Shown here one piece after another: positions 15,001-45,000 of a stretch of 64,000 nucleotides of DNA. The DNA comes from Octopus vulgaris. Its lineage: Eukaryota. The stretch is from positions 68,138,001 through 68,202,000 of the forward strand of contig OX597821.1 in assembly GCA_951406725.2 (NCBI GenBank), read 5' to 3'. The position numbers were made by a program. The first letter of the stretch is position 1. Each line of letters starts with the position of its first letter.

Positions 15001-18000
15001 AAATATTTGAATTCTATGCATATTTTTTCATATAATTCCTTTATTTCGAAGACGAATTTTTTATCCCACCGAATATTATACAGAGTTTATTATCGCCCTT
15101 GTAACACCACTTGTGGAGGAACCGTTCGTATATGATACAATTATATGTCGAAAGATATAATAGGAAATGTGAGCATGCGTGTGAGTAAACGCACACATGC
15201 ACACATATATGTATGCATGTGTGTGTGTATTCTTTTACTCTTTTACTGGTTTCAGTCATTTGACTGCGGCCATTCTGGGGCACCGCCCTGAAGAGTTTTG
15301 GTCGAACAAATCGACCTCAGGGCTTTTTTAAAGCCTAGCACTTATTCTATCACTCACTTTTGCCGCACCGCCTGGTTTCAAGGACGTAAACCTACCAACG
15401 CCGGTTGTTAAGCGGTGATGAGAAGAAAAACACAGACACAAAGACACACAGAGTCTCACTCACACACACACACATATTATACTGGGTGTCCCAAAATTCA
15501 CTTATGGGTTTCAAGTTTTAATCACTTCCTTAACTTTACAAATAAATGCATGATATTTTGATATAATATACAATATAAAGGACATAATGGAAATGAATAT
15601 GCACAAGTCAAATTTTCCAACACTCCTACATAGCATACGAAAAATGACATCGCTTAAATGGCAGCCATTTTCGGTTTCGCACGCCCGTGTTCTTTCCAAA
15701 ACGTGCACCATAACACTCTCAAGAGTTTCAGACCCACTTCTCTGATTTCTCTATTGATGTTCTCATTCAGTTGCATCAGGGTTTCCAGTTTGTTGACGTA
15801 AACCCCCTCTCTCAGGTATCCATGATTGAGATCTTTTTACGCCCGGCCATTCAAAGTAGACTTCACACATAGTTCCAGCCGGATGGAGCAACGTCTCATA
15901 ACGCAAGAGAAACAAGGCTGTTGCTACGGCAGTGCTTTGGAGAGAGAATAATCTCCCGCTATGGTAATGTCAACTGGCCTTCACGTACCCCCGACTTGAT
16001 TAGCCCGGATTTTTTCTTGTGGGTGTACCTGAAAGAGAGGGTTTATGACAACAAAGCGGAGACTCTGGTGCAACTGAAGAACATCAAAAGAGAAATCTGA
16101 GAAGTGAGGTCTGAAAAAGATAACTGTCTCTTCCGACACCCTGTCCATCTTTTGGCTGGCTTTTCAAATTATAAGATTTGTAGATCAATGTTTTCACTTA
16201 CTCTTCTTGTAAAATTTTCTCTGCTGGTTCAACTTCCAAAATGTTGCCTTCTTTTGGTAACATTTCTTGGTATTTCTTTAATTCTTTTTTCTCTGTAGTA
16301 AGTTGCCGGGTTCGACCTCCGGCTGCCATAGCAAAGTTTTTCTTGGATCTTTTCGGTTTGAACGGCAGTTTTTAACATAATTTCTAGGTAACTAAAAAAT
16401 TATAAACTTCGTATACTGGTAGAATGTGTTTATAAAACATCTTTTTCTCTTGGCCAAATATCTTACAAACTATAGAATTTTCTCAATAAAGCCAAGAGAA
16501 AAAGATGTTTAAAATTTTTTAGTTACCTAGAAATTATGTTAAAAACTGCCGTTCAAACCGAAATGATCCTTTTTCTTTTCTGTTTCGCCGTTTTGTACAC
16601 TGGGTGCGTCAACAATTCTTGTCAATACTATGCTTTCTTTTACTGGATCCTTTTTATTTTTCTTGGGTGAACTTGCTGGAGTTCCAACTGAGAGTCTTGG
16701 GTACTCTACCCAAGATTCAATATCAGACATGGTGGCAGTTACGTAGACAACAATTTCACTAGGCTTATCGCCGCACAGCATATTTTTTTTTAGAACAAAT
16801 AGTAATTATTCCCCACAACGGGGGAATAAATAACAAATGTTTCCAAGAAGCAATAAAAAATCTTAAAAATAAACAGCTAATTCAACGAGAAGTTTAACAC
16901 ATTGTAACAATCTCACCTTATGAAAAAAAAAACAAGCAAACAACGCAAGTAGAAGTGGAAAACATTTGTGAAGTAAAACATTTTTGCGAATGAAAATGAA
17001 ATCAAAATCTTTCGTAAAAATAAAATAAAATGTGAATTCAAATCTCGGGTTAAACCTGGTTAACCATATAAGACAAGTTGGATTACTGATAATTAAAAAT
17101 AGGAAATAATTAAAGTGAGGTGAAAGCATATATGCAGAATGTTAATGGGAACAGTTCAAACTTCACTGATATTTGTGATTTACAATTTACAATGATCGTT
17201 ATCTTACAACTTATATATAGAAGGTTAATAGGTTCGAACTCAACGCCAAGTTCGTGAATTACTAAGATGCCAAAATATAAAAAATTATAAAGAATTTTAC
17301 ACTTAAACTTTAAGATGACTAAATCTAACTATACATATAAACATGCATACATACATACATATATATATATATATGTATATATATATATATATATATATAT
17401 ATATACTTTATTTTAAGCAGCAGAAAATTCAACAAAATCTGTTACTCTGAGTTTCTCGTTGCCGTTCATCAGACAGTTTTTGCTAGCAAAAACTGTCTGA
17501 TGAACGGCAACGAGAAACTCAGAGTAACAGATTTTGTTGAATTTTCTACTGCTTAAAATAAAGCATATTACTCTACCACTGGTATTTGAGTACTCTTTTT
17601 TCCACCTTGTTTCACATTTATGTGTTTACTCCGGTATATATATATATATATATATATATATATATATATATATATATATATATATATATATGGTTCCGGG
17701 TTCAGTCCCACTGCGTGGCATCTTGGGCAAGTGTCTTCTGCTGTAGCCCCGGGCCGACCAATGCCTTGTGAGTGGATTTGGTAGACGGAAACTGAAAGAA
17801 GCCCGTCGTATATATGTATATATATATATGTGTGTGTGTTTGTGTGTCTGTTTGTCCCCCTAGCATTGCTTGACAACCGATGCTGGTGCGTTTATGTCCC
17901 CGTTACTTAGCGGTTCGGCAAAAAGAGACCGATAGAATAAGTACTGGGCTTACAAAAAGAATAAGTCCCGGGGTCGAGTTGCTCGATTAAAGGCGGTGCT

Positions 18001-42000: not shown

Positions 42001-45000
42001 TACATGTTTTACGGAAATGTGAGATGATTATAACAAATGACAAGATATGAAAAAAAGTTAACAAACAATAGTTACCTTGTTACTAGTTTCGGTTGTAATG
42101 CTTAATCGCATAACCAGATGGAGTAACACTTATGTTTAGGTATTTAGAGATAAGCAAGAAAACAATGTAGCTAAACATACGTACATATCATACATACATA
42201 TATGCAGACAGACTGAGATATAGACAGGCAAATTGGGAAACAAATAGAGAAACATATAGATAGATAGATAGATAGATAGATAGATAGATAGATAGATAGA
42301 TAGATAGATAGATAGATAGATAGATAGATAGATAGATAGATAGATTGATTGATAGATAGATAGATAGATAGATAGATAGATAGATAGATAGATAGATAGA
42401 TAGATAGATAGATAGATAGATAGATAGGGACAATGGAGGAAATCGTAAGAAGAATGGGAACAGTAGGAAGAATCGTAAGTAAATTAAATTATACGCCATA
42501 GGATACATAGAATGAATATGACAAAATCGCGTAGCAAATTAACTGGAATTGAATTAAGTAATAAATACCTGTAGAGTTTGAGTCTCCATCTCTGGTTATG
42601 TTCTTAATGTTCAGTCGAGAGCGCTTAAACGTTGAAACACAATCACCTCACGTGGTGTGTTTTTCTTTCTCTCATCGATAGCTTGGCATATCAGGAGTAC
42701 AGACTCGCAAATGCAACACATATTTTTCTATCTTCAGTCGCTTTGTTTACATAAATGTAACTCTCAGAGTTTGGCACTAAATTCTATAGAAAATCTGTGG
42801 AGGTAACTTAAAAGTGATATATGATATGATTTTGTGCCAAACATGGCTTGAGACCATTGTAGCGTAAGAGAGGACAAAGAAGGAAAACAATAGACCGAAC
42901 ACATTGATTGACAAAATGCTTAAAGGACTGGATATATCATAGACCAGAAGAAAACAAGACTATGGTAATAAATTCCAGAGAACAGAAGTTCGAAGAAAGA
43001 AGCTTTTAGAATAAATGGATTGATGACTAACAGGAAGCCCAACAAAGAAACGATTCGCCAGGGAAGAGATGCGTGTGATACGCTTAAAGGTCAAGGCCAG
43101 AAATTTCGTCAAAGCAATGACCATGGAAATACTTATGGAAAAAACACAAAGACCACACATACATGTGTACATTATATATCTGTGTGTGTGTATATATACA
43201 TATATATATATACTACTTACTACCTACAATCCTTCTTATTCTCATACTACTTGCATTCTTTCTTATTCTCCCTTCTCTTTCTTCTTTTCCTCCTCTCCTT
43301 CTTCTTCTTCTTCGACTTCTTCTCCTCCTCCCTCTCCTCTTCCCTCTCCTCCTCCCTCTCCTCCTCCCTCTTCTTCTTCTACTTCTTCTTCCCTACCAGG
43401 AATTCACAAGGACCTCGAACAGTAACACAAGAGTAAACAAGAGAGACAGAGACAGGTAGAAACAAGAGAAATGCCACTTGTATTTGAACACTATGCAAGT
43501 ATTCTTTAAAAAAAAACTTTTCTTTTAATTTTTCCAAAATTTAATTGTTTTTCCATACTTACAGTTGAAAACGTCTCAGTGACTGAAACCGGTACTGAAA
43601 TGTTTTTTTTATAAATATACATAGATACATACATATATATATATATATATATATATATATATATATATATTAATTATATATATATATATAATAATTAGAG
43701 ACAAAACCACTATTTTGTAAATCAAACAAGGAAAGACTTGTTGTTTTGTCTCTAATTAATATTATATAATATTTTACTATAAAATTGGATTCAATCCTAA
43801 ATCTGATTTTTCCCTGTAAATTTGGATTTGTTCCCTAATATTTTATCATATATATATATATATATATATATATATATACATACATACATACATACATACA
43901 TACATACATACATACATACATACATACATATACAGACAGACAGATAGGCAGACAAATAGATAGATAGATAGATAGATAGATAGATAGATAGATAGATAGA
44001 TAGATAGATAGATAGATAGATAGATAGATAAATAGAAAAATGCTTCATGTTAATCTTCTATCCTTTGGTTCTTAACTTTCATTCTTATAATCTGACCTTT
44101 AAGACAGAATGGTAATTTATCGTCAACCTGGCCCTTTTCCTTCATTTTCTGTCACTTACCCGTTTATATAAACTCTATGGATACTATGAAATTCCTGATG
44201 TATATCTAGTAACAGGAACATCTTAACTAATGATATATCAAGTAGCCACCATCCTTGAGCGTGCTTTGCATAGCATTTAACAAGTTTGTATACTTGAGTA
44301 TATATATATATATATACATATATATATATATATATATATATATATATATATATATATATATATATATATATATATATATATATATATATAAAACATTATT
44401 GGTGAATTGAAGAAATGGAGCTGAACGCAGATTGAACAGAAATCGTTTTATTTCATTCTACACGTGTTTCGAAAGGCACAAATTACCAAAATCCGATTGA
44501 ATAATGGGACCATATTGTGTCTTTCTCTTGAGTTTCGCCATGGGCTCTTAGGAGCATAGTTCGTTTTGTTTTTGCTCCGCCTCTGTTCTGTTTTTGTTTT
44601 TCCAACGGATTTCCTATTTTCTTCCTGAAGAGAAAGACACAATATGGTCCCATTATTCAATCGGATTTTGGTAATTTGTGCCTTTCGAAACACGTGTAGA
44701 ATGAAATAAAACGATTTCTGTTCAATCTGCGTTCAACTCCATTTCTTCAATTCACCAATAATGTTTTAATTTCAATTATCCGCACCAACGCACGTTTGCA
44801 ACACCATATGGTTGTACCTCCAACCGTTCTGTTTACTGCTGTGATTTTTGCTACTAAGGTATCGGTTAAACTTTTGATTAATCTACTACAAGATTATTCA
44901 TCTTTCTATTTCACATAATATATATATATATATATACATATGTGTGTGTGGGTGCGTGTATGTGTATGTATGTATGTATGTATGTATGTATATATATATA

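What the first reader, a model, noticed from the sequence alone, without database searches (positions are those of the whole stretch)
17406..44919. Recurrent 'inverted copy + direct copy + tail' cassette at (TA)n tracts, shared by non-homologous sequences
Seen: 17406-17634, 21900-22176, 27234-27870, 43692-43848 and 44390-44919 (probably also 18360-18842) share one layout: an inverted arm, an optional spacer, the direct arm, then a 70-150 bp single-copy tail running into (TA)n. The arms share no sequence between loci. Known: Penelope insertions often carry a 5' inverted partial pLTR and a 3' extension. Inference: a common fold-back or self-priming integration mechanism generating non-autonomous hairpin elements that mimic MITEs and could produce dsRNA (ADAR or siRNA substrates).
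Basis: partly seen in the sequence, partly recalled or inferred. Interest (0 to 1): 0.72.

Follow-up and report, generated by a model that had tools for sequence, protein, structure and literature searches.

The report
Hairpin-plus-tail mobile elements in TA repeats
Short non-coding mobile elements, each a head-to-head inverted duplication followed by a one-sided tail, sit in TA microsatellites of this repeat-rich animal genome; they look like a known retroelement insertion signature in miniature rather than a new system.

Summary
The layout is real and not chance. Each has an inverted arm, a spacer of 0-373 nt, a direct arm, then a tail of 71-151 nt running into (TA)n.

One cassette is demonstrably inserted DNA. 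It splits the internal (TA)n of a SINE whose intact copy lies elsewhere in the window.

The tails are not random flank. C, G and B tails are related and carry a 3' stem-loop. E's tail recurs alone between two TA tracts.

The arm/tail boundary carries a short TA run in 6 of 8 cassettes.

Best reading (confidence about 0.5): non-autonomous or 5'-truncated retroelement copies integrated at (TA)n, with fold-back or two-strand priming. The inverted copy ends at an internal TA run. This matches the published Penelope-like signature of an inverted copy, a one-sided tail and an AT-rich or (TA)n target.

No direct Penelope link was found: no hammerhead, no tandem pLTR, no RT/GIY-YIG ORF, and the tails are longer than 30-40 bp.

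DNA-transposon readings (TA-target MITE, Helentron-like) remain live. dsRNA and editing roles are untested.

The parts
2814..3093 (-). On the minus strand it has outer arms 3093-3048/2940-2895 and inner arms 3049-3014/2986-2951. Its tail is 2894-2814, running into (TA)n 2813-2799. The arm side abuts (TA)n from 3077.
   Evidence: It is homologous to cassette C over the outer arm plus tail.
17406..17634 (+). Cassette A, a zero-spacer palindrome. Arms are 17406-17484/17485-17563 (78/79 identical). The tail is 17564-17634. It is flanked by (TA)n 17376-17405 and 17635-17691.
   Evidence: It folds at -133.6 kcal/mol, z -22.6.
18361..18843 (+). Cassette F. Arms are 18361-18458/18610-18709 (86/101), the spacer is 151 nt and the tail is 18710-18843, running into (TA)n 18844-18883. 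On the arm side lies (GT)n plus 8 nt of TA-type sequence.
21900..22175 (+). Cassette B. Arms are 21900-21984/21986-22070 (81/85). The tail is 22071-22175 and holds a 15-bp-stem hairpin at 22128-22163. The tail runs into (TA)n(TG)n 22176-22232. The left flank is unique DNA.
   Evidence: Tail fold z is -2.9. The tail hairpin motif is shared with C.
22233..24109 (+). Arms are 22233-22922/23296-23971 (585/699), the spacer is 373 nt and the tail is 23972-24109, running into (TA)n 24110.
27237..27870 (+). Cassette C. Arms are 27237-27387/27642-27792 (145/151), the spacer is 254 nt and the tail is 27793-27870, with a hairpin at 27821-27854. It is flanked by (TA)n 27199-27236 and 27871-27909.
   Evidence: It is inserted in the internal (TA)n of a SINE.
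27099..27198 (-). The 3' half (the 'Y' part plus (GT)n) of the minus-strand SINE that cassette C interrupts.
   Evidence: alignment A6 against the intact copy 17692-18064.
27904..28080 (-). The tRNA-like head half of the same minus-strand SINE. It ends in (TA)n at 27909-27871.
43692..43847 (+). Cassette D. It has short arms 43692-43707/43743-43758 (16/16) and a tail 43759-43847. It is flanked by (TA)n 43633-43690 and 43848-43878.
   Evidence: (read directly).
44391..44917 (+). Cassette E. Arms are 44391-44529/44628-44766 (138/139), the spacer is 98 nt and the tail is 44767-44917. It is flanked by (TA)n 44318-44390 and 44918-44936.
   Evidence: The hairpin folds at -256.5 kcal/mol, z -34.7.
58066..58219 (-). 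A solo unit homologous to E's tail, with no inverted repeat. It lies between (TA)n 57997-58065 and 58220-58280 and starts within a few bases of the position that is E's arm/tail boundary.
   Evidence: 66.7% over 129 nt, E 5e-9; alignment A2.

Best explanation
The cassettes are copies of several unrelated, non-coding mobile elements that integrate at (TA)n microsatellites through an RNA intermediate by target-primed reverse transcription.

**Proposed mechanism.** The template is [body + short TA run + tail], ending at the TA tract. cDNA synthesis starts from a nick in (TA)n and copies the tail and then the body. [quoted passage not shown] Alternatively, the second nicked strand primes a second copy. 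The inverted copy is closed onto the upstream (TA)n where it reaches the first internal TA run, which can anneal to the self-complementary TA target.

This gives (TA)n | inverted arm | spacer | direct arm | TA run | single-copy tail | (TA)n.

**Likely enzyme.** The enzyme class whose known products look like this is the Penelope-like RT/GIY-YIG protein. The cassettes would be its non-autonomous passengers or extreme 5'-truncated copies.

**Shown:** the architecture, its non-random association with TA tracts, the insertion status of C, the family relations of the tails, and the TA run at the arm/tail boundary.

**Inferred:** the RNA intermediate, the fold-back step, the identity of the enzyme, and any transcription of the hairpins.
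For: 1. **Layout.** The layout occurs in 8 cassettes and far exceeds chance.
2. **Insertion.** C plus its tail (634 bp) sits inside the internal (TA)n of a SINE. The SINE's two halves flank it, and an intact copy shows head-(TA)n(TG)n-Y contiguous. Arms and tail are therefore foreign DNA, not a local duplication.
3. **Tails belong to the elements.**
   - C and G share the outer arm, junction and tail at the same boundary.
   - B and C tails share a 3' hairpin motif that occurs only there in the window (2 matches, 0.11 expected). The motif was derived from those two sequences.
   - E's tail recurs alone at 58066-58219.
4. **Tails are more conserved than arms.** This holds across families and is what a cis-acting 3' recognition or priming element predicts.
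5. **TA run at the arm/tail boundary.**
   - An alternating TA run of at least 5 nt lies at the boundary in 6 of 8 cassettes, against 9.6% of random 22-nt windows.
   - Such a run lies at 0 of 14 inner arm boundaries.
   - Direct arms hold 1 such run in 1176 nt. The window background predicts 6.0-6.9 and mononucleotide shuffles predict 5.96, P 0.012.
6. **Other retroposons here end in (TA)n at their 3' end.** In family X, 3 of 4 copies do so and the fourth ends in a (GT)n-type tract; 3 of 4 have unique 5' flanks. The SINE does the same. B likewise has a TA tract only at its tail end.
7. **Zero- or one-nt spacers** in A and B fit fold-back synthesis.
8. **Literature.**
   - Penelope-like insertions carry an adjacent inverted 5'-truncated copy, a tail at one end and a (TA)n bias (PMC8557442).
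   - The purified protein cleaves and extends both strands at AT-rich DNA and starts at two sites in a stem loop, which defines the tail (PMC11167929).
   - Palindromes at inverted junctions were read as self-priming, and pLTR sequences suffice in trans (PMC3846280).
Against: - No hammerhead ribozyme was found at the gathering or the permissive threshold.
- No tandem or pLTR structure was found in or beside the cassettes.
- No RT/GIY-YIG ORF was found anywhere in the window. I searched 20 ORFs, 150 and 126, out of 302 ORFs of at least 55 aa that passed a low-complexity filter from 471 in total. Roughly 20 ORFs nested in the LINE were not sent.
- Tails are 71-151 nt, against 30-40 bp in the papers.
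- Only 1 of 9 tails has an ATG-started frame of more than 11 codons open to its end.
- Only B's tail folds clearly better than shuffles. The other seven cassette tails have z between -0.1 and -1.4.
- The depletion of TA runs in the arms is not significant against dinucleotide-preserving shuffles (2.57 expected, P 0.23).
- The boundary windows were chosen after seeing the sequences.
- C and G share a fixed arm end, which a TIR transposon also predicts.
- One paper states that Naiad PLEs in cephalopods are old remnants, whereas arms of A and E are 99% identical. That the window is cephalopod is only my recollection of its SINE.
- No other copy of any arm could be examined, because no eukaryotic genome collection was available.
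Confidence: 0.5

Rival explanations
1. The cassettes are non-autonomous DNA transposons. One version is a TA-targeting TIR element of MITE or foldback type whose right end carries an extra subterminal segment. The other is a rolling-circle Helentron-like element (HINE) with a 5' inverted repeat, a subterminal 3' inverted repeat and a 3' stem-loop.
For: - C and G share the arm terminus while the inner arm differs, as in TIR families.
- All 8 arm pairs can be read with a TA on each side (read).
- A plain TA-flanked MITE exists at 13489-13699, and a pogo-type DDE ORF lies at 59518-61008.
- HINEs have a 3' subTIR 38-60 bp from the 3' end and a palindrome 8-35 bp from it (PMC4067079, passages). This is the same asymmetry as arm + tail + hairpin in B, C and G.
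Against: - The tail recurs in at least 6 sequence-unrelated arm families. TIR transposition does not predict that.
- The tail end is not an inverted copy of the arm start. Cognate scores are not above shuffles in 6 of 8 cassettes, and the best P values are 0.024 and 0.038.
- Helentrons insert at TT or T-rich sites, not (TA)n.
- No canonical Helitron ends were seen (read from the sequences).
- No Rep/helicase ORF was found in the window.
- B has a TA tract only at the tail end. Family X and the SINE also carry (TA)n at their 3' end, which points to a 3'-tail-type relation.
Confidence: 0.28
2. The cassettes are composites of two independent insertions into one ancestral TA tract. One is a palindromic TA-target MITE. 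Beside it lies a short (TA)n-tailed retroposon fragment, the 'tail'. TA tracts then act as nesting hot spots.
For: - The tail of E exists alone between two TA tracts and starts at about the same position.
- A short TA remnant separates arm and tail in 6 of 8 cassettes.
- TA tracts are dense, with 75 merged tracts in 64 kb, and are hit by SINEs and other repeats.
Against: - C and G have homologous arms and homologous tails joined at the same base. Two independent double hits are unlikely.
- In 8 of 8 cassettes the repeat lies within 0-7 TA units of the tail rather than anywhere in the longer tract.
- No cassette has TA tracts directly on both sides of the repeat, and none has tails on both sides.
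Confidence: 0.1
3. The cassettes are repair scars. Breaks at fragile, cruciform-prone (TA)n tracts are repaired by fold-back priming or template switching. This copies adjacent local sequence in inverted orientation and rejoins through TA microhomology. No mobile element is involved in making the inverted arm.
For: - A TA run lies at the arm/tail boundary, and the left arm merges into the TA tract.
- Arms are unrelated between loci.
- A and B have zero-spacer palindromes.
Against: - For C, neither arms nor tail belong to the interrupted SINE, so the duplicated material was not pre-existing flank.
- Both window members of the C/G family carry the repeat with the same boundary.
- Tails fall into families with a shared 3' hairpin.
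Confidence: 0.07
4. The cassettes are assembly or sequencing artefacts, that is, chimeric fold-back reads collapsed at microsatellites.
For: A, B and E are near-perfect palindromes next to low-complexity DNA, where assemblers fail. PLE-type structures are known to trouble assemblies.
Against: - Arms of F and H are only 84-85% identical, and those of B and C 95-96%. They carry substitutions and indels.
- Spacers range from 27 to 373 nt.
- Related copies lie 24 kb and 13 kb apart.
- The window holds no N.
Confidence: 0.02

Closest known systems
Penelope-like element (PLE) insertion structures, especially (TA)n-targeting Naiad/Neptune-type elements and trans-mobilised pLTR passengers
   Same: - A head-to-head inverted partial copy lies at the 5' side.
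- An extension ('tail') is present at one end only.
- Palindromes occur at the inverted junction.
- The target is AT-rich or (TA)n.
- Naiads also lack hammerhead motifs.

Sources: PMC8557442; PMC3846280; PMC11167929.
   Different: - There is no ORF, no pLTR tandem and no hammerhead.
- Tails are 71-151 nt rather than 30-40 bp.
- Whole units are only 156-1877 bp.
- There are at least 6 unrelated arm sequences in one 64-kb window.
- Homology to any PLE could not be tested.
Helentron-derived non-autonomous elements (HINE / DINE-1-like), abundant in molluscs
   Same: - The ends are asymmetric. An inverted repeat lies at the 5' end and subterminally at the 3' end, followed by a short 3' segment with a stem-loop.
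- The elements are associated with microsatellites and are non-coding (PMC4067079).
   Different: - HINE subTIRs are 12-16 bp and the target is TT or T-rich.
- Here arms are 16-690 nt and the flanks are (TA)n.
- The 3' stem-loop is clear only in B and C.
TA-target MITEs of the Tc1/mariner type and palindromic MITEs
   Same: They are short and non-coding, have long inverted arms that can be a near-perfect palindrome, and are flanked by TA.
   Different: The inserted DNA extends 71-151 nt beyond one arm, and that extension is conserved across families. A true example without a tail is at 13489-13699.
SINEs and 5'-truncated LINE copies with a 3' stem-loop tail and simple-repeat end. The 'stringent' LINE/SINE tail recognition is my recollection and comes from no call.
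   Same: The conserved 3' tail carries a stem-loop followed by a simple repeat. The 5' body is variable, and a tail-only copy exists.
   Different: No pol III head is present. The systematic 5' inverted duplication is not a SINE/LINE feature. L1 twin priming inverts without duplicating (recollection).

Membership tests
Penelope-like element insertions | Element-encoded RT of PLE type with GIY-YIG endonuclease | tested here: not met
   - No RVT or GIY-YIG hit was found in the cassettes or elsewhere, apart from one APE-type LINE and one zf-RVT remnant.
- The cassettes have no ORF of note.
- They could therefore only be passengers or extreme truncations.
Penelope-like element insertions | Adjacent head-to-head inverted 5'-truncated copy | tested here: met
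   8 of 8 cassettes.
Penelope-like element insertions | Tail of 30-40 bp at one end only | tested here: inconclusive
   The tail is one-sided in 8 of 8 cassettes, but it is 71-151 nt long.
Penelope-like element insertions | pLTRs formed by partial tandem copies | tested here: not met
   Tandem Repeats Finder over 17000-28200 shows only microsatellites and short internal repeats. The cassettes outside that range (D, E and G) were not scanned.
Penelope-like element insertions | Hammerhead ribozyme in the pLTR (absent in Naiads) | tested here: not met
   Rfam gave 0 hits at the gathering threshold. At E up to 5 there was no hammerhead over 17000-28100 and 43400-45200. One search returned 168 matches and printed the best 150; no hammerhead is among those shown.
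Penelope-like element insertions | AT-rich / (TA)n target | tested here: met
   - C lies inside a SINE's (TA)n.
- TA tracts lie on both sides of A, C, D, E and G.
- B has a TA tract on the tail side only.
Penelope-like element insertions | 3' end homologous to an autonomous PLE of the same genome | not testable with these tools
   No eukaryotic genome or repeat library is on hand.
Helentron / HINE | Insertion at TT or a T-rich site without target duplication | tested here: not met
   Flanks are (TA)n, and unique DNA ending in TA for B.
Helentron / HINE | Short subTIRs near the 5' end and 38-60 bp from the 3' end, plus a 3' palindrome 8-35 bp from the end | tested here: inconclusive
   - The asymmetric inverted repeat is present, but arms are 16-690 nt and lie 71-151 nt from the 3' end.
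- A 3' hairpin 14-20 nt from the end is clear in B and C and weak in G.
- It is absent or not significant in the others.
Tc1/mariner-type MITE | TIRs at both termini of the inserted DNA, with TA duplication | tested here: not met
   - The inserted DNA of C includes a 78-nt tail beyond the right arm.
- The tail end is not an inverted copy of the arm start.
- TA on both sides is compatible in 8 of 8 cassettes but uninformative.
tRNA-derived SINE | tRNA-like pol III head | tested here: not met
   - ARAGORN found none in the window, and no tRNA-like sequence is seen in arms or tails.
- ARAGORN also missed the SINE heads that are visibly tRNA-like, so this test is weak.

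The most novel reading that the evidence does not exclude
The cassettes are a so far undescribed class of 'fold-back retroposons'. In this reading, short non-coding RNAs carrying a 3' tail (a stem-loop in some families) are mobilised in trans into (TA)n microsatellites. Each integration creates a new long hairpin by self-primed snap-back synthesis, and the hairpin is closed by TA microhomology at the first internal TA run. The genome would then keep manufacturing perfect dsRNA-forming hairpins from arbitrary sequence. 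These would be a renewable source of ADAR or small-RNA substrates, and TA microsatellites would be their landing pads.
Probability: 0.2. Interest if true: 0.6.

Novelty: new variant of a known kind. Interest (0 to 1): 0.4.

Why it matters
- **A natural record of an unsolved step.** If the retro/fold-back reading holds, these cassettes record how Penelope-like, or other (TA)n-targeting, reverse transcriptases finish integration. That step has not yet been worked out in vitro. The TA run at the arm/tail boundary gives a concrete, testable rule for where the inverted copy ends.
- **Annotation.** Such units will be misfiled as MITEs or as 'unknown' repeats. They split microsatellites and SINEs.
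- **Potential substrates.** They are ready-made long hairpins (-134 to -257 kcal/mol) that could feed RNA editing or small-RNA pathways if transcribed.
- **If they are DNA-transposon derivatives instead,** the finding is routine repeat annotation.

Tried and rejected
- **Tail end as a third TIR copy.** Local alignment of arm start against the reverse complement of the tail end was not above shuffles in 6 of 8 cassettes, and non-cognate pairs scored as high. Rejected.
- **Automatic scan of all 150 TA-tract boundaries.** The first script timed out. The second ran, but degenerate microsatellites swamped it: 45 hits at the boundaries and 105 of 1500 controls. I did not use it.
- **Hammerhead or other RNA families.** Only sub-threshold miRNA-precursor models matched, triggered by hairpins and TA repeats.
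- **ORF start in tails, as in the Anolis PLE.** Not found.
- **The window's LINE as partner.** It ends in (TATG)n near 8131, and I saw no resemblance to any tail when reading its 3' end. It was not directly aligned to the tails.
- **Taxon from the LINE protein.** The best hits were unnamed, at 48% identity or less. The host stays unidentified. An octopus origin is my recollection of the SINE sequence only.
- **Canonical Helitron ends (5' TC, 3' CTRR, A|T site).** Checked by eye on both orientations; not found.
- **Depletion of TA runs inside arms.** Significant against the window background and mononucleotide shuffles, but not against dinucleotide shuffles. I keep it as suggestive only.
- **Not done.**
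  - Genome contigs holds only bacteria and archaea, so I did not scan it.
  - No other copy of this genome was consulted.
  - Supplementary files of the cited papers were not opened. They may hold PLE consensus ends that bear on the membership question.
- **Literature on whether such elements are in print.** Searches found no description of hairpin-plus-tail non-autonomous elements at (TA)n. The nearest were retrozymes (preprint 10.64898/2026.07.22.740005, passages) and non-autonomous Chlamys elements.

Full report
**What is there**

The window is AT-rich, repeat-dense animal DNA with no N. It holds 97 runs of (TA)5 or more, merging to 75 tracts.

| Cassette | Arm length (nt) | Arm identity | Spacer (nt) |
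|---|---|---|---|
| A | 79 | 98.7% | 0 |
| B | 85 | 95.3% | 1 |
| C | 151 | 96.0% | 254 |
| D | 16 | 16/16 (read) | 35 |
| E | 139 | 99.3% | 98 |
| F | ~100 | 85.1% | 151 |

- G lies at 2814-3093 in the opposite orientation.
- H lies at 22233-24109, with ~690-nt arms at 83.7% identity.

Tails measure 71-151 nt from the core arm end (D read and G).

**Is it chance?**

I entered thirteen non-simple inverted repeats. Four as entered (A, C, D, E) have one outer end within 10 bp of a TA tract and the other within 160 bp. G is a fifth once its arm end is placed outside the tract. Only 0.57% of random placements of the same lengths do this.

F and H have both ends within 160 bp, against a null of 2.75%. 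They carry (GT)n/(TG)n rather than (TA)n on the arm side. B has unique DNA on the arm side.

Five other inverted repeats do not show the layout, so it is not a property of all hairpins here. Among them are a plain TA-flanked MITE at 13489-13699 and a hairpin at 16345-16569.

**The cassettes are inserted DNA**

The window holds a tRNA-derived SINE with an internal (TA)n(TG)n microsatellite. The copy at 17692-18064 shows head, microsatellite and 3' half ('Y') contiguous.

A second, minus-strand copy is split. Its head ends in (TA)n at 27909-27871. Its (TA)n(GT)n-Y half resumes at 27236-27099. Cassette C lies exactly between the two.

So arms and tail of C are both foreign to the site. This removes the idea that the tail is merely the flank up to the next TA tract. 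It also removes, for C, the idea that the inverted arm is a repair copy of pre-existing local sequence.

**The tails are the conserved part**

- C and G align over the outer ~45 nt of the arm, the junction and the whole tail. BLAST gives 68.5% over 127 nt, E 6e-9, and the arm/tail boundary falls at the same base. The inner arms do not align.
- B and C tails share a hairpin of the form TGGTAA...TTACCCT, placed 14-20 nt before the TA tract. This pattern occurs only at those two places in the window, but I derived it from those two sequences. G has a weaker version. D shares the sequence after the hairpin.
- E's tail recurs at 58066-58219 (66.7% over 129 nt, E 5e-9). There it stands alone between two TA tracts and begins within a few bases of E's arm/tail boundary.
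- Only B's tail folds clearly better than shuffles among the cassettes (z -2.9). The solo unit gives z -2.1 and the rest lie between -0.1 and -1.4.

**A rule at the boundary**

An alternating TA run of at least 5 nt lies at the arm/tail boundary in 6 of 8 cassettes. The same holds for 9.6% of random 22-nt windows. My binomial arithmetic gives about 2e-5, or about 1e-4 if C and G count as one. None of 14 inner arm boundaries has such a run.

The left arm correspondingly merges into its TA tract.

The direct arms contain one such run in 1176 nt. The window background predicts 6-7 and mononucleotide shuffles predict 5.96 (P 0.012). Against dinucleotide-preserving shuffles the deficit is not significant (2.57 expected, P 0.23). 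The boundary windows were chosen after inspection, so this is a lead with a good control, not a proof.

**Direction**

Other repeats here carry (TA)n at their 3' end.
- In family X, 3 of 4 copies end in (TA)n and the fourth in a (GT)n-type tract; 3 of 4 have unique 5' flanks.
- The SINE ends in TA-type repeats.
- The window's intact APE+RT LINE ends in (TATG)n.

B has a TA tract only after its tail. I therefore take the tail end as the 3' end of the unit.

**Mechanism proposed**

An RNA of the form body-TA run-tail is reverse-transcribed from a nick in (TA)n. At the template's 5' end the new strand turns back on itself, or the second nicked strand primes a second copy. The inverted copy is joined to the upstream TA tract at the first internal TA run, which can pair with the self-complementary target.

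This yields every observed feature:
- a single-copy tail;
- the TA run at the boundary;
- the same boundary in C and G;
- zero-spacer palindromes (A, B) or loops;
- unrelated arms;
- conserved tails;
- a tail-only relative.

The tail-only unit could equally be a cassette that lost its unstable palindrome by slippage between the TA repeats on either side.

None of the steps (RNA intermediate, turn-back, enzyme) is shown here.

**Comparison with known systems**

*Penelope-like elements.* The published signature fits best.
- An inverted 5'-truncated copy lies at the 5' side, a tail lies at one end, and Naiads show a (TA)n bias and lack hammerheads (PMC8557442, passages).
- A 31-bp tail lies on one of the inverted pLTRs. 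Palindromes at inverted junctions were read as self-priming. pLTRs suffice for mobilisation in trans, and 5' junctions form by microhomology (PMC3846280, passages).
- A purified PLE protein cleaves and extends both strands at AT-rich DNA and starts reverse transcription at two sites in a stem loop. The tail is the stretch between the two sites (PMC11167929, main text parts 1-2).

Membership fails or stays open on several defining points.
- There is no RT/GIY-YIG ORF in the window.
- There is no tandem pLTR.
- There is no hammerhead.
- Tails are two to four times longer than reported.
- There is no ORF start in the tails.
- Homology to a PLE is untestable with the tools on hand.
- One paper says cephalopod Naiads are old remnants. 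Another lists Penelope families among recently active repeats in Octopus vulgaris (PMC13282606, passages). That this window is from an octopus is my recollection of its SINE only.

*Helentron-derived HINEs.* These share the asymmetric ends and the 3' palindrome, but they insert at TT sites and have 12-16-bp subTIRs (PMC4067079, passages).

*TA-target MITEs.* These explain the arms and the TA flanks but not a tail that recurs across unrelated families. The tail end is not a TIR copy.

**dsRNA potential**

If transcribed, A and E would form near-perfect hairpins. A folds at -133.6 kcal/mol (z -22.6) and E at -256.5 kcal/mol (z -34.7). Sub-threshold miRNA-precursor models match them for that reason alone. 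No expression, editing or small-RNA data could be consulted.

**Verdict**

It is best read as a miniature, non-coding version of a known retroelement insertion signature at TA microsatellites, with a DNA-transposon origin as the main rival.

It is a useful annotation and a possible mechanistic clue, namely the TA-run rule. It is not a new kind of system on present evidence.

The decisive test is a genome-wide comparison of copies within each family, together with a comparison of the tails against the ends of autonomous elements. Neither could be run here.

Noticed in passing
8353-12672 (minus strand), 3' end near 8131-8096: An intact 1439-aa LINE ORF carries an APE endonuclease, RT, a Myb/SANT-like domain and a CCHC/CCCH finger. 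Its 3' UTR ends in a (TATG)n tail. The best database relatives are at most 48% identical and unnamed.
   Followed up: partly
17692-18064 (+); 27099-27236 and 27871-28080 (-); further 3' halves at 15228-15450, 35722-35792 and 49050-49268: A tRNA-derived SINE with an internal (TA)n(TG)n microsatellite and an (AGTAAAAG)n end. It seeds many of the window's TA tracts. Copy 17692 is 5'-truncated directly against a TA tract.
   Followed up: partly
18885-19016, 41527-41647, 31670-31787 (-), 55568-55685 (-): Repeat family 'X', about 120 nt. Its 3' end runs into (TA)n in 3 of 4 copies and into a (GT)n-type tract in the fourth, while 3 of 4 have unique 5' flanks.
   Followed up: partly
31273-31550 and 36542-36983 (both minus strand); 36187-36209: A second SINE family has a clear tRNA-like head abutting TA tracts. 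A 15-24-nt fragment of its interior sits alone and inverted between two TA tracts about 500 bp away.
   Followed up: no
4912-5355 and 4043-4118: A 184-bp unit with a tRNA-like segment occurs in 2.4 tandem copies at 93% identity. One inverted partial copy lies about 800 bp upstream.
   Followed up: no
13489-13699 and 16345-16569: Two ordinary hairpin elements without a tail and away from TA tracts. The first has 74-nt arms at 96% identity and TA on both sides, so it is MITE-like. The second has 63-nt arms at 97% identity.
   Followed up: partly
59518-61008 (+): Pogo/Tigger-type transposase remnants: HTH_Tnp_Tc5 and CENP-B_N in one ORF and DDE_1 in the next.
   Followed up: no
34656-35114 (-): A zf-RVT match (E 3.5e-5, below the Pfam cut-off), probably a decayed LINE.
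   Followed up: no
17447-17522 and 21928-22042: The palindromes of A and B score just under Rfam gathering thresholds for several miRNA-precursor families. For example, mir-980 scores 43.1 bits against a threshold of 47. This is an easy source of false miRNA calls.
   Followed up: no
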